Shown in pieces: positions 8,078-13,117 of a stretch of 13,913 nt of DNA. The position numbers and the translations under genes were made by a program. The stretch spans positions 1 through 13,913 of the forward strand of contig CAZWEM010000003.1 of assembly GCA_964632315.1 (NCBI GenBank), written 5' to 3'. Within the stretch, counting starts at the first letter, position 1, and the number at the start of each line of letters is the position of its first letter. Source of the stretch: an uncultured archaeon (GTDB lineage Archaea > Asgardarchaeota > Lokiarchaeia > Sigyniarchaeales > SOKP01). A model generated the notes under the pieces. That model was not told the origin of the DNA and ran no database searches. It worked only from the letters and a program-made list of their open reading frames with translations.

Positions 8078-8875
8078 TTGAACCATGAATTATTAGAAAT
8101 TTTTGATAAACACTCAAAAAGAGATTCAGTTGAATCTCGATTTAAAGGAACCATGACTTCAGTTTTTCTTAAAGGAAAAGAACACAAGATCAGGCATAAG
8201 CTCTTAGACCTTTCTGGAAAAAATATCTCAAGTATAAAAGATATTAAGGGCCTTGAAAAGGTAAAAGAACTGGAGATCTTAAATTTAAGTTTCAATAGCA
8301 TCAGAGAAATAGACCGGCTTGAAAACTTAGCACGATTAAAAGTCCTTCTTTTGTATAATAATAAGATTTCTCAAATTAAAGGATTGAACTCTCAATCAAG
8401 GTTAGAAGTTTTAAACCTATATGAGAATGAGATTATTGATATCGAAAATCTAGATGCATTACAACAACTTAAAGAATTATATCTGGGCTGTAATAAAATA
8501 TCGGAAATAAAAGGATTAGAATGTCTTACTAATTTAAAATATCTAAACCTTGAAAAAAATCAGATTAGAGAGATAAAAGGATTGACTTCATTAAGGAAAT
8601 TGATTTTATTGGCATTAAAATGGAATAAGATTAGTAAAATTAGTGGATTGAATAACCAACATGAGCTGATGAGGTTAGAACTCTCATATAATTCCATCAC
8701 TGACATTCAGGGATTAGAAAATCTCAATAACTTAATAAATTTAGACCTTCGACATAATCCAGTTGCAAATAAAGTCATCAAAACTGATCCAAATAATAAT
8801 TATAAAGTTTTAGTTAGGGATCTCGAAGCGAAAGAACTCGTAAGTTATTGCAGAGAATTACTGAAAAAAAAATAA
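8078..8875 (+). CDS. Leucine-rich repeat protein (SDS22/internalin-like 22-aa repeats)
   Basis: About 9 repeats of LxxLxLxxNxIxxIxGLxxL, ending in LDLRHNP. The start codon is uncertain (TTG). Confidence 0.9.
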   Translation: MNHELLEIFDKHSKRDSVESRFKGTMTSVFLKGKEHKIRHKLLDLSGKNISSIKDIKGLEKVKELEILNLSFNSIREIDRLENLARLKVLLLYNNKISQIKGLNSQSRLEVLNLYENEIIDIENLDALQQLKELYLGCNKISEIKGLECLTNLKYLNLEKNQIREIKGLTSLRKLILLALKWNKISKISGLNNQHELMRLELSYNSITDIQGLENLNNLINLDLRHNPVANKVIKTDPNNNYKVLVRDLEAKELVSYCRELLKKK

Positions 8876-10933: not shown

Positions 10934-12247
10934 CTAAATGACTTTCTTTCCACAATTCGGACATATTAAGGCTCCTTCGGGAAGCAAACCTCCACAATGC
11001 TTGCAATATGGGTCCTCTTGATAACCTTTTTTAGAGACAAATCTTGGTATTACCTTTAATGCACCAGCAAGATCGTCAGGGAATTTTGGGGGATTAAGGA
11101 TGTAAGGATAGGGATAATCTCCTCCACGATTGCCTCTAGAACGAAGATCCGATAGATAATCTGGAATTTCGGTTGTTATTTGGATATCTGTCTTTAATGC
11201 CATGAAGCTTTCATTATCGTGCTTGAGTTCTTCAATGATATCATATCGTTTTAGGTATTCTAAAGACTCATCGAGGTATTTTAAGGAGCGTTCAGATAAC
11301 ACGTGAGAAAGTTCATCTTTGGAAAAGATACCTTTTCTTAGTTGCGATAAGATGGTATACTTCCTTGAATCCGATAGGATTTGAAGTAAAACATATGAAT
11401 CTTCTTCTGATTCTTTTCCACTTTTATTTTCATATAGACTAAAATATTCTTGTACCTTCGGAAGCAGGTTTTTAATCATATCGTTTTCGAGATCTTCAGG
11501 AGCTTCTCCTAAATATTTACTTAAGCTTTCTGGAGGAATTCTTTTCACGCGTACCTCTTTCGATAAAAACACGTATTTCTCAATAAATCCGACTTGAGTA
11601 ATGAAGATCAATTGTTTTTATACGAGATTATCCATTAATTCTTTGAAACTGAAAAGTGGAAAAACCTCGTTAAACCATTCATTCAATTCTTCTAATGAGA
11701 TTTGTCCTTTTGACACCTTACTTAGAGTAAGATATACATGACGTTTGGTTAATAGGGTAGCAATTTGTTCTTCTTCACTTTTTTCTCGAGTTTCTTCAAT
11801 GGTAGCCCAGTAGAGCTCTTTAACCAATTCTTTTAAGATTTCATTGTTTTTTATAATTAAATCTTTATCGTCTTCTTCCATATTGTTTATATCGCTAATA
11901 TAAAATGCTGTATAGATTTCTCCATTTAATTGAAGTTTTGAACAAAAATCTGCGCATAAATTCATTAAATTGTGCTCCATCTCTGCGGATATTTGATCAT
12001 CAAAAATTATTGATACCATCACCTTCTCATTGTTCCCTCTTGACCAATCAGACTGAATCTCGAAATAGTAGTTTATGAATAGCTTATCCTCAAAAGAAAA
12101 AGTAAAAAAGCCTTCACTTACAGTTTGGTGTAAGATATTAGCAACTCGACCTGTGAATTGGTCATCTAATTCTTCTTTTGGGAAGGTATGCAATACTATC
12201 GGTCCCATTTTTCTATGAAGGTATGATAACACCACCATAGGCTTCAA
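10934..12247 (-). pseudogene. Single 437-codon gene (longin/uDENN-like N-terminus, winged-helix repeats, Pro-rich linker, C-terminal zinc ribbon) interrupted by one in-frame TAA at 11618-11620
   Basis: ORFs 11618..12247 and 10934..11611 are in the same frame: ELMDNLV*KQLIFITQVG. The N-terminus has a GP.V...FP motif and the C-terminus has CKHC-x10-CPNC. A GGAG SD-like sequence precedes the TTG start. Confidence 0.7.
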
Positions 12248-12516: not shown

Positions 12517-13117
12517 TTAATCCATTGCGTATTTCTTCGTCCAGCTTTCGGCTTTGGACTCGAATTTCTTCAAAGCCCGGAAATATTGTTCACCAGCTTC
12601 ATGATTTAACGGATCACCGGGATTAAAGAAGGGCGGCTTTACACGTCATGCAAGATAACTGCATGGCTCCATGTGCATCATGCCCTTCAATGCCTCAATG
12701 ATGTTCGTTAAAGTTTTACTTGGTGTCCATCCACTCGCCCCGGTCGAGGCATCCACTTTTCCTACGAGATCGGGATTTATTAAATCTAAGCAAATGTTCA
12801 ATTTCCCCGGTGGTATCGAACTATCGATATTTGGATCGGCATTTATAGATAAGTTCTATAAATTATGCCACATCAGAGTAACCGCATACGCGTTTATCCT
12901 TTTCAAGCGATTTGCTTTGAAAAAATGGAGGCGTAAACGGATAATTCTCGGGGAACTTGATTTCGAACACGAATTTTCCCTTATAATAGGGGGTACCATC
13001 TTTGCCATGAATGGTTAGCCGCAGGTGGTCGATGCTTCGACCCCATGGTTCGATTACCACGGAGGGGTCCTCTTTAAACGCTTCGAGCGCTTCAGCATAA
13101 TCGGTTTCTTCTCTCAC
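12517..13117 (-). CDS. Ubiquitin-conjugating enzyme E2 (UBC fold), 169 aa after splicing; exons 13117-12925, 12893-12865, 12834-12669, 12638-12517
   Basis: The joined exons (193+29+166+122 = 510 nt) translate to MREETDYAEALEAFKEDPSVVIEPWGRSIDHLRLTIHGKDGTPYYKGKFVFEIKFPENYPFTPPYAYAVTLMWHPNIDSSIPPGKLNICLDLINPDLVGKVDASTGASGWTPSKTLTNIIEALKGMMHMEPPFFNPGDPLNHEAGEQYFRALKKFESKAESWTKKYAMD*. All E2 hallmarks are present: GTPY..G.F, YPF.PP, HPNI, ICLDL with Cys89 at 12790-12792, WTP, DPLN.EA and WTKKYA. Confidence 0.92.
12639..12668 (-). other. Putative archaeal-type (canonical BHB) mRNA intron 3, 30 nt
   Basis: mRNA: GC-ACAU-GG|A-GCCAUGCA-GUUAUCU-UGCAUGAC-GUGU-AA|A-GC. It has a 4-bp central helix, two 3-nt bulges and an inner stem with 7 of 8 bp paired. 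It contains an in-frame TGA (12646-12648), and removal gives HMEPPFFNPGDPLN. Confidence 0.85.
12835..12864 (-). other. Putative archaeal-type (canonical BHB) mRNA intron 2, 30 nt
   Basis: mRNA: UG-UGGC-AU|A-AUUUAUAGA-ACUUA-UCUAUAAAU-GCCG-AU|C-CA. It has a 4-bp central helix, two 3-nt bulges and a perfect 9-bp inner stem. It contains an in-frame TAG (12856-12858), and removal joins H and P of HPN. Confidence 0.88.
12894..12924 (-). other. Putative archaeal-type (relaxed BHB/BHL) mRNA intron 1, 31 nt
   Basis: mRNA: UACGC-CUCC-AU|U-UUUUCAAAGC-AAAUC-GCUUGAAAA-GGAU-AA|A-C-GCGUA. The central helix is 3 of 4 bp paired, the inner stem is 9 bp with one bulged A, and the outer stem is 5 bp. Removal repairs the frameshift and restores the E2 PP-x9-HPN spacing. 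Confidence 0.78.

What the first reader, a model, noticed from the sequence alone, without database searches (positions are those of the whole stretch)
12517..13117. An archaeal (Asgard-like) ubiquitin E2 gene split by three short bulge-helix-bulge introns
Seen: the E2 reading frame is broken by three insertions of 31, 30 and 30 nt, causing a frameshift, a TAG and a TGA. All three are hairpins that pair with the last exon bases to form a helix flanked by bulges. Cutting after the 2nd nucleotide of each bulge gives exactly the lengths needed to restore an uninterrupted 169-aa E2. Established: BHB motifs are cut by the archaeal splicing endonuclease EndA and ligated by RtcB. They are typical of tRNA/rRNA introns and are known in mRNA mainly from the single intron of crenarchaeal cbf5. 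Inference: this is a multi-intron mRNA in a eukaryotic-signature gene, so E2 expression depends on tRNA-type splicing. Gene callers would miss it or call it a pseudogene. Three independent structure-plus-frame matches are hard to explain by chance. I cannot confirm from here whether this has been described before.
Basis: partly seen in the sequence, partly recalled or inferred. Interest (0 to 1): 0.97.

Follow-up and report, generated by a model that had tools for sequence, protein, structure and literature searches.

The report
Three tRNA-type introns split Asgard E2
A ubiquitin-conjugating enzyme gene of a Loki-type Asgard archaeon is broken by three ~30-base hairpin inserts shaped like tRNA introns, and environmental RNA ends exactly at two of the predicted cut sites, so the message is very probably spliced by the tRNA-splicing enzymes, which papers document for only one archaeal protein gene (cbf5).

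Summary
Observation confirmed; interpretation supported. The minus-strand E2 gene (13117-12517) carries unique inserts of 31, 30 and 30 nt. Removing them gives a 169-aa ORF exactly colinear with dozens of uninterrupted orthologues. Introns 2 and 3 are canonical bulge-helix-bulge (BHB) motifs; intron 1 has one mismatch in the central helix.

Related genomes carry ~30-nt BHB inserts at the sites of introns 1 and 3 and at others. Their helices covary, including exon-intron pairs, and dN/dS between intron-bearing orthologues is 0.01-0.09.

The genome has two EndA paralogues and RtcB. Its single-copy leuS holds the same kind of insert.

Two sediment metatranscriptomes contain a 166-nt circular RNA that is exactly exon 3. 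Its ends are the predicted 3' cut of intron 2 and 5' cut of intron 3. Independent DNA contigs contain introns 1 and 3.

Still missing is a linear spliced junction from this same strain; spliced-looking RNA contigs come only from relatives.

This scan had already reported BHB mini-introns in other genes of this genome and in E2 genes of other genomes. New here are three introns in one gene and the exon circle. I found no paper describing this in Asgard coding genes.

The parts
12925..13117 (-). Exon 1 (193 nt, GTG start at 13117; ends CCUCCAU, phase 1)
   Evidence: Pfam UQ_con 3.2e-11. Colinear with orthologues.
12894..12924 (-). Intron 1, 31 nt, relaxed BHB. Central helix is CUCC (12930-12927) with GGAU (12899-12896), 3 bp plus C.U. 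Bulges AU|U and AA|A. Inner hairpin of 7-9 bp. Outer helix UACGC/GCGUA.
   Evidence: Homologous-site introns in 5 other genomes with perfect CUCC/GGAG or GGGG. Present in DNA contig X1 record 4.
12865..12893 (-). Exon 2 (29 nt, encodes (Y)AYAVTLMWH)
12835..12864 (-). Intron 2, 30 nt, canonical BHB. Central helix is UGGC (12870-12867) with GCCG (12840-12837). Bulges AU|A and AU|C. 9-bp hairpin. In-frame TAG. Found only in this genome among the species searched.
   Evidence: z -3.7. Its 3' cut (12835|12834) is one end of the RNA circle.
12669..12834 (-). Exon 3 (166 nt; HPN motif and catalytic Cys). Also seen as a 166-nt circular RNA.
   Evidence: joint 12834->12669 'goes back 166' in X18 and X19, with no shared letters at the joint. 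X18 record 8 is 196 nt, which equals 166 plus 30 nt of overlap. The peptide is 85-100% identical across the order.
12639..12668 (-). Intron 3, 30 nt, canonical BHB. Central helix is ACAU (12674-12671) with GUGU (12644-12641). Bulges GG|A and AA|A. 7-bp hairpin with one C.A mismatch. In-frame TGA.
   Evidence: 8 other genomes have an intron at this site with a covarying central helix. Its 5' cut (12669|12668) is the other end of the RNA circle. Present in DNA contig X1 record 2.
12517..12638 (-). Exon 4 (122 nt including TAA stop at 12519-12517)

Best explanation
The gene encodes a conserved, stand-alone second E2 (ubiquitin-conjugating enzyme) of a Loki-type Asgard archaeon. Its pre-mRNA carries three mini-introns of the archaeal bulge-helix-bulge type.

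Proposed mechanism. Each intron is a hairpin. Its 3' end pairs with the last exon bases to make a 4-bp helix flanked by two 3-nt bulges. The splicing endonuclease EndA cuts after the second nucleotide of each bulge; two paralogues are present here, probably an alpha-beta heterotetramer. The RNA ligase RtcB then joins the 2',3'-cyclic-phosphate and 5'-OH ends. Correct exon-exon ligation yields the 169-aa E2. Internal exons released by two neighbouring cuts can also be closed on themselves, which gives the observed exon-3 circle.

Shown: the anatomy; colinearity with orthologues; covariation; purifying selection in intron-bearing lineages; the enzyme genes; RNA ends at two of the six cut sites.

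Inferred: that EndA and RtcB are the enzymes; that all three introns are removed from one molecule; that the protein is made.
For: 1. Exact excision restores a 169-aa ORF. It is gap-free colinear with an intact paralogue and with more than 25 uninterrupted 507-nt orthologues, and the junction peptides are identical.

2. Introns 2 and 3 have canonical BHB geometry and intron 1 a relaxed one.

3. 22 further inserts of 29-40 nt occur in E2 orthologues of 15 other genomes, and nearly all have a 4/4 central helix and 3-nt bulges. This count leaves out one 22-nt alignment gap of doubtful register. At the intron-3 site (9 sequences) 89% of cells pair, 8 of 15 pairs changed on both sides, and 0 of 500 shuffles reached this; slid controls gave 20-44%. 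The exon-intron helix swaps CG<->UA and GC<->AU. At the intron-1 site (6 sequences) 89% pair, 6 of 12 pairs changed on both sides, 0 of 500 shuffles.

4. dN/dS is 0.009-0.094 between orthologues that share a homologous intron. Against intron-less orthologues dS is saturated and dN is 0.04-0.09.

5. RNA contigs in two metatranscriptomes of one study join 12834 back to 12669, which is a 166-nt circle of exon 3. It has 0-1 mismatches to the window and no microhomology at the joint. A second contig, from a relative, joins the exon 3 end to the exon 2 start and runs on through exon 2 into CC, the first two letters of exon 3.

6. DNA contigs of a salt-marsh run contain introns 1 and 3 in line with the exons.

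7. The genome has two EndA paralogues and RtcB.

8. The single-copy leuS of the same genome carries a 30-nt insert with the same geometry. The Pfam profile continues across it, positions 5-46 then 48-145.
Against: No linear exon-exon junction was seen in RNA that is sequence-identical to this strain. The rhizosphere RNA contig (X20) that runs from exon 3 through exon 2 to ATG, the last three letters of exon 1, is about 93% identical to the window. It could come from a relative whose DNA lacks the introns.

The RNA evidence is assembled contigs from one study (two samples), not raw reads.

Intron 1 has a mismatched central helix. The outer helices of introns 2 and 3 are only 2 bp, so cutting efficiency and ligation fidelity are unknown.

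The fold of the intron-3 region is no more stable than shuffles (z 0.29).

My genome-wide scan could not show an excess of such introns.
Confidence: 0.87

Rival explanations
1. EndA cuts the motifs, but the main outcome is not productive splicing. The inserts would work as cleavage sites that fragment or down-regulate the message, producing exon circles, and little or no E2 would be made from this locus.
For: The only RNA form seen for this strain's own sequence is the exon-3 circle. The outer helices that should hold the exons of introns 2 and 3 together are only 2 bp. An intact E2 paralogue exists in the Ub-E1-E2-JAB operon.
Against: The exons are under strong purifying selection in lineages that have kept homologous introns through nearly saturated synonymous divergence. 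That requires translation of a correctly joined message. The cut sites restore the conserved protein to the nucleotide. leuS, which is single-copy and essential, has the same insert type, so productive splicing must exist in this cell. Circles are more stable than linear mRNA and are expected to be over-represented.
Confidence: 0.07
2. A recently dead gene (pseudogene) that was hit by three hairpin insertions.
For: A frameshift and two in-frame stops are present. A paralogue could cover the function.
Against: There is no other lesion. The exon-3 peptide is identical to that of same-genus orthologues. The inserts sit in exact BHB register and are not repeats. Homologous introns persist across genera with dN/dS below 0.1. 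The RNA is cut at the predicted sites.
Confidence: 0.03
3. The inserts stay in the mRNA and the ribosome hops over them (translational bypassing, as in T4 gene 60 or mitochondrial byp elements), or they are removed at the DNA level.
For: The inserts are short hairpins of about 30 nt with stop codons near their start, which superficially resembles bypass elements.
Against: No matched take-off and landing codons flank any of the three inserts (sequence). BHB geometry and exon-intron covariation are not features of bypass elements. The RNA circle shows cleavage and ligation at the RNA level. DNA contigs keep introns 1 and 3.
Confidence: 0.02
4. An assembly or binning artefact created the inserts.
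For: The genome is a metagenome assembly with 8.6% estimated contamination.
Against: Separate DNA contigs from a public run contain introns 1 and 3, though that run may be the source sample. Independent assemblies of 15 other genomes have the same kind of insert in the same gene.
Confidence: 0.01

Closest known systems
BHB intron in the cbf5 (pseudouridine synthase) pre-mRNA of Crenarchaeota (Watanabe 2002; Yokobori 2009, PMC2738675)
   Same: A short intron inside an archaeal protein-coding gene. It is bounded by a bulge-helix-bulge motif, removed by the tRNA-splicing endonuclease and ligase, gained and lost among lineages, and missed by gene callers.
   Different: cbf5 has one intron in one gene family of thermophilic Crenarchaeota. 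Here there are three introns in one gene, a different gene (a eukaryote-signature E2) and a different phylum (Asgard). Several recurrent intron sites occur across an order, and there is a circular internal exon. PMC2738675 states that splicing was confirmed for no archaeal gene other than cbf5.
Archaeal tRNA/rRNA BHB introns, including the heavily interrupted tRNA genes of some Asgard archaea (bioRxiv 10.64898/2026.10.13.758758)
   Same: Same motif definition (two 3-nt bulges, a 4-bp helix, one cut in each bulge). Same enzymes. Repeated gains at sites where the exon can supply half of the motif. Two EndA paralogues are common in Asgard genomes.
   Different: The host RNA here is an mRNA, so there is no tRNA body to hold the exons together. 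[quoted passage not shown] That preprint does not treat protein-coding genes.
BHB-dependent circular RNAs in archaea (circular pre-16S/23S rRNA, tRNA introns, the 5' UTR intron of HVO_1309 in Haloferax; PMC7714728, PMC3326292)
   Same: A fragment released by EndA cuts is closed into a circle by the ligase. The circle ends lie in BHB bulges.
   Different: In the known cases the circle is the piece enclosed by one BHB. Here the circle is a coding exon lying between two separate BHBs, which resembles exon back-splicing.
IRE1/RtcB unconventional splicing of HAC1/XBP1 mRNA in eukaryotes
   Same: A small intron in an mRNA is removed by a protein endonuclease acting on stem-loops and by the tRNA ligase, without a spliceosome.
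   Different: A different endonuclease and motif, a single stress-regulated intron, and a eukaryotic host. No homology is claimed.

Membership tests
Archaeal bulge-helix-bulge intron (EndA/RtcB substrate) | [quoted passage not shown] | tested here: met
   Introns 2 and 3: 4/4 central helix, 3-nt bulges, inner hairpins of 9 and 7 bp, outer helix only 2 bp. Intron 1: 3/4 central helix (C.U) and an offset 5-bp outer helix, so a relaxed form.
Archaeal bulge-helix-bulge intron (EndA/RtcB substrate) | Cutting at the symmetric bulge positions yields the functional product | tested here: met
   Cuts after bulge nucleotide 2 remove 31, 30 and 30 nt and give a CDS colinear with, and identical at the junctions to, uninterrupted orthologues.
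Archaeal bulge-helix-bulge intron (EndA/RtcB substrate) | The structure, not the sequence, is conserved among homologous introns | tested here: met
   The count of structure pairs: 89% of cells paired, 8/15 and 6/12 pairs changed on both sides, 0/500 shuffles, slid controls 20-57%.
Archaeal bulge-helix-bulge intron (EndA/RtcB substrate) | The host encodes the splicing endonuclease and RtcB ligase | tested here: met
   Two PF01974 hits above cut-off (C28, C8) and one PF01139 hit (C26).
Archaeal bulge-helix-bulge intron (EndA/RtcB substrate) | RNA ends or ligation products at the predicted cut sites in vivo | tested here: met
   The circular joint 12834->12669 in two RNA runs equals the 3' cut of intron 2 joined to the 5' cut of intron 3. 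The other four cut sites were not seen for this strain.
Archaeal bulge-helix-bulge intron (EndA/RtcB substrate) | Ligated exon-exon junction in RNA while the DNA of the same organism holds the intron | tested here: inconclusive
   Exon 2-exon 3 (and apparently exon 1-exon 2) junctions occur only in RNA contigs of relatives that are 83-93% identical. Their DNA state is unknown.
Archaeal bulge-helix-bulge intron (EndA/RtcB substrate) | Cleavage by purified EndA in vitro | not testable with these tools
   Needs a bench assay.
Ubiquitin-conjugating enzyme E2 (Pfam PF00179, UQ_con) | Profile match above the curated cut-off | tested here: met
   Exon 1 alone scores 43.4 bits (cut-off 27). The intron-less orthologue that is 93% identical scores 88.7 bits.
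Ubiquitin-conjugating enzyme E2 (Pfam PF00179, UQ_con) | HPN motif and catalytic cysteine | tested here: met
   WHPNID and NICLD are present in the spliced product and invariant in orthologues. HPN is created only by the exon 2-exon 3 junction.
cbf5-type pre-mRNA intron of Crenarchaeota | Located in the cbf5 gene of Desulfurococcales/Sulfolobales | tested here: not met
   The gene is an E2 and the lineage is Promethearchaeota. It works alike but is not a member.
Translational bypass element | Matched take-off and landing codons flanking the gap | tested here: not met
   Read directly from the sequence: no matching codon pairs flank any of the three inserts.

The most novel reading that the evidence does not exclude
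Loki-type Asgard archaea keep a real exon-intron architecture in protein-coding genes. Multiple BHB mini-introns per gene would persist at recurrent sites over long evolutionary times and be processed by the tRNA-splicing enzymes. Internal exons would regularly be closed into circles, an archaeal counterpart of exon back-splicing. Expression of eukaryote-signature genes such as this E2 would then depend on, and could be regulated by, EndA/RtcB activity.
Probability: 0.45. Interest if true: 0.95.

Novelty: new variant of a known kind. Interest (0 to 1): 0.9.

Why it matters
Protein-gene introns removed by the tRNA-splicing machinery are documented in print for a single archaeal gene family. Here one gene of the closest prokaryotic relatives of eukaryotes has three. 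Homologous introns have been kept across genera under purifying selection, and the RNA is cut at the predicted positions.

Three consequences follow:
- Split genes and obligatory mRNA splicing exist in Asgard archaea without a spliceosome.
- A protein-only cut-and-ligate system can produce circular exons.
- Standard gene callers mis-annotate such genes. They call them pseudogenes or fragments, or, where the intron has no stop, proteins with 10-residue read-through insertions; such entries are already in public databases.

The finding also gives a concrete, testable system for how BHB introns are gained at sites where codons happen to supply half of the motif. The test material is three substrates plus the EndA pair and RtcB of one genome.

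Tried and rejected
1. Genome-wide BHB plus ORF-merging scans. The number of BHB-like hits whose excision fuses two open frames did not differ from controls with the excised length shifted by 1-2 nt (for example 656 against 615-637, and 117 against 115-133). Adjacent same-strand genes swamp the signal, and short exons fail the thresholds. The scan therefore gives no estimate of how many coding introns the genome has. It did recover leuS. Three other top candidates were simply neighbouring genes.

2. RNA runs X18 and X19 gave no cover on exons 1, 2 and 4 or on the introns, and X20 covered only parts. Missing cover in contig data is not evidence about the linear mRNA.

3. I tried to identify the relatives behind the variant RNA contigs. 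The exon-2 variant matches one species representative (L048, intron-less) with 1 mismatch. That genome differs at 9 of 34 positions in the adjoining exon-3 stretch, so it is not the source. The DNA state of those relatives stays unknown.

4. A repeat or mobile-element origin: the three inserts have no other copies in the genome.

5. A long-range BHB enclosing exon 3: GCCG cannot pair with ACAU, so the circle comes from two separate motifs (read from the sequence).

6. ARAGORN for tRNA introns found only 30 tRNAs, 19 with 'introns', some implausibly long. This is too crude to compare intron sizes.

7. The window-wide motif listing was over-permissive and was not used.

Full report
**What is there.**
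The window is the first 13.9 kb of contig C3 of a 4.45-Mb, 119-contig metagenome-assembled genome. It is 34% G+C, 99.5% complete and has 8.6% estimated contamination. On the minus strand an E2 (ubiquitin-conjugating enzyme) reading frame starts at GTG 13117 and ends at TAA 12519-12517.

Three inserts break the frame:
- 12924-12894, 31 nt, a frameshift
- 12864-12835, 30 nt, an in-frame TAG
- 12668-12639, 30 nt, an in-frame TGA

Removing exactly these leaves exons of 193, 29, 166 and 122 nt and an open 169-codon frame. Exon 1 alone matches Pfam UQ_con. The spliced product has the HPN motif and the catalytic Cys. HPN exists only once exons 2 and 3 are joined. The three inserts have no other copies in the genome, so they are not a repeat or mobile-element family.

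**Are the excision points right?**
A paralogue in the same genome (C29) aligns with the spliced product without a gap at any junction. It sits in a ubiquitin - E1 - E2 - JAB operon.

I searched the 154 genomes of the same order with the exon-3 peptide and found the orthologue in 143, at 80-100% identity. Most are uninterrupted 507-nt genes. More than 25 of these align base for base with the window's spliced sequence, and the junction peptides PPYAYAVTLMWHPNID and MMHMEPPFF are identical. The predicted joints are therefore correct to the nucleotide at the level of the encoded protein. Near relatives are named Promethearchaeota or Promethearchaeia MAGs, that is Loki-type Asgard archaea.

**Structure.**

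| Intron | Central helix | Bulges | Inner hairpin | Outer exon-exon helix |
|---|---|---|---|---|
| 2 | UGGC/GCCG | AU\|A, AU\|C | 9 bp | 2 bp |
| 3 | ACAU/GUGU | GG\|A, AA\|A | 7 bp, one C.A | 2 bp |
| 1 | CUCC/GGAU (3 bp + C.U) | AU\|U, AA\|A | good hairpin | 5 bp (UACGC/GCGUA), offset by one unpaired C |

Introns 2 and 3 are canonical and intron 1 is relaxed. Thermodynamic folds recover the hairpin and the exon-intron helix for all three. In part they choose alternative registers, and the intron-3 region is no more stable than shuffles.

A looser genome-wide scan gave about 6e-5 BHB-like hits per fixed position and length. Two exact-register hits on the only registers that restore colinearity are therefore far beyond chance.

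**Comparative evidence.**
Fifteen other genomes of the order have inserts of 29-40 nt in this same gene. In coordinates of the 507-nt CDS they lie at:
- nt 193, the site of window intron 1 (5 genomes)
- nt 388, the site of window intron 3 (8 genomes, in five genera)
- nt 163-169, 380, 436 and about 103

Intron 2 (nt 222) was found only in the window. Nearly all of these inserts have a 4/4 central helix, 3-nt bulges and a 7-10-bp hairpin.

At site 388 the exon half of the central helix varies with synonymous or conservative codon changes (ACAU, AUAU, ACGU, AUGU). The intron half follows it (GUGU, GUGU, GCGU, GCAU). Formal counts:
- Site 388: 89% of cells paired, 8 of 15 pairs changed on both sides, 0 of 500 shuffles as good, slid controls 20-44%.
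- Site 193: 89% of cells paired, 6 of 12 pairs changed on both sides, 0 of 500 shuffles as good.

Coding sequences of intron-bearing orthologues are only 73-89% identical, with synonymous sites partly saturated. Even so, dN/dS between pairs that share a homologous intron is 0.009-0.094. The gene has thus stayed under strong purifying selection while interrupted.

**Machinery and genome context.**
The genome has two EndA paralogues and RtcB. Two paralogues is the arrangement reported for most Asgard genomes and associated with broad substrate range (PMC5829648 abstract).

My own scan independently recovered a 30-nt insert in leuS (C41:26283-26254). It has central helix UAUG/CAUA and bulges AU|A and AA|A. 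The class-I synthetase profile runs 5-46 before it and 48-145 after it, and leuS is single-copy. An essential gene interrupted in this way means the cell must be able to splice mRNA productively.

**RNA and DNA reads.**
- In two marine-sediment metatranscriptomes of one study (two samples), contigs cover exon 3. They contain a joint from 12834 back to 12669, with no shared letters at the joint.
- One contig is 196 nt. That equals the 166-nt exon plus a 30-nt overlap, the signature of a circular sequence in a k=31 assembly graph. It has 0-1 mismatches to the window.
- The ends of the circle are exactly the predicted 3' cut of intron 2 and 5' cut of intron 3.
- A second contig in both runs comes from a relative (3 mismatches in 35 nt). 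It joins the end of exon 3 to the first base of a synonymous variant of exon 2 and runs on through exon 2 into CC, the first two letters of exon 3. This fits a circle of exons 2+3, cut at the 3' site of an intron-1 homologue and the 5' site of an intron-3 homologue.
- A rhizosphere RNA contig (93% identical) runs from exon 3 directly into exon 2 and then into ATG, the last three letters of exon 1. This is the spliced order, but I could not learn whether that relative's DNA has the introns.
- DNA contigs of a salt-marsh run contain introns 1 and 3 in line with the exons. That run may be the source sample.

**Mechanism.**
The best reading is ordinary archaeal BHB processing applied to an mRNA. 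EndA cuts both bulges of each motif and RtcB ligates. Because there is no tRNA body, only the outer helix holds the exons together. That helix is 5 bp at intron 1 and 2 bp at introns 2 and 3.

An internal exon released by two neighbouring motifs has the same end chemistry as an excised intron. Self-closure into a circle is therefore an expected side reaction, and circles are stable and easily over-represented.

- Shown: the motif, the cut positions at two sites, the covariation, the selection and the enzyme genes.
- Inferred: the identity of the enzymes acting here, complete three-fold splicing of single molecules, and the yield of protein.

**Rivals.**
- A dead gene is contradicted by the conservation, the selection and the RNA cuts.
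- An artefact is contradicted by independent DNA contigs and by 15 independent assemblies.
- Ribosomal bypassing lacks matched take-off and landing codons and does not explain the RNA circle.
- The one rival with some weight (about 7%) is that cleavage is mainly non-productive or regulatory at this locus.

**Literature and earlier notes.**
Searches of the held library found no report of BHB introns in Asgard protein-coding genes.
- The cbf5 papers state that no other archaeal gene had confirmed pre-mRNA splicing.
- A 2020 Haloferax study counts one mRNA plus one 5' UTR.
- A 2026 preprint on Asgard tRNA introns does not treat coding genes.

Earlier notes of this scan report the same kind of mini-intron in other genes of this genome: histone, gyrB, TBP, leuS, acetyl-CoA synthetase and SCP2. 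They also report it in E2 genes of other genomes, one with spliced RNA. I treated these as leads. I verified leuS myself. I saw a broken histone-like frame at the stated place. I also found the E2 introns of relatives independently.

**Verdict.**
This is a new variant of a known kind: multi-intron, in an Asgard archaeon, with a circular exon. Confidence is 0.87 that these are functional BHB introns removed at the RNA level.

Noticed in passing
G000 contig C41:26254-26283 (minus), locus L131: The single-copy leucyl-tRNA synthetase gene is split by a 30-nt canonical BHB insert (central helix UAUG/CAUA, bulges AU|A and AA|A). The insert sits inside the conserved PMGYD|SFGLPAEN motif. The Pfam class-I synthetase profile continues across it.
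   Followed up: partly
G000 contig C29:13500-18500 (locus L130): An operon on one strand encodes a ubiquitin-like protein, E1 (ThiF), an uninterrupted E2 paralogue (38% identical to the window's E2) and a JAB deubiquitinase. The window's E2 is therefore a second, stand-alone E2.
   Followed up: partly
G000 contig C3, about 100600-100900 (minus): A histone-fold reading frame (PIRRLMKQQGA...VARNAVDLL...) appears broken over several frames.
   Followed up: no
Database proteins P0004 (181 aa) and P0010 (191 aa): Public E2 protein entries carry 10-residue insertions exactly at the intron-1 site (after PP) and near the intron-3 site (after KGM). They look like stop-free 30-nt introns translated through by gene callers.
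   Followed up: partly
whole genome G000: ARAGORN finds only 30 tRNA genes in a genome that is 99% complete, and 19 of them have an intron call. This fits tRNA genes so interrupted that standard finders miss many.
   Followed up: no
window 10934-11611 and 11618-12247 (both minus): Two same-strand ORFs of 225 and 209 aa are separated by 6 nt. One has only a C-terminal zinc ribbon and the other has no Pfam match. I did not check whether they are one interrupted gene.
   Followed up: no
loci L034 and L041 (genome G112): One related genome holds two copies of this E2. One copy has a single intron (site 388). The other has three introns at sites 193, 380 and 436. This may be a paralogue or bin contamination.
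   Followed up: no
window 8078-8875 (+): A 265-aa leucine-rich-repeat protein (LRR_4/LRR_8), a eukaryote-like repeat family, lies 4 kb from the E2.
   Followed up: no
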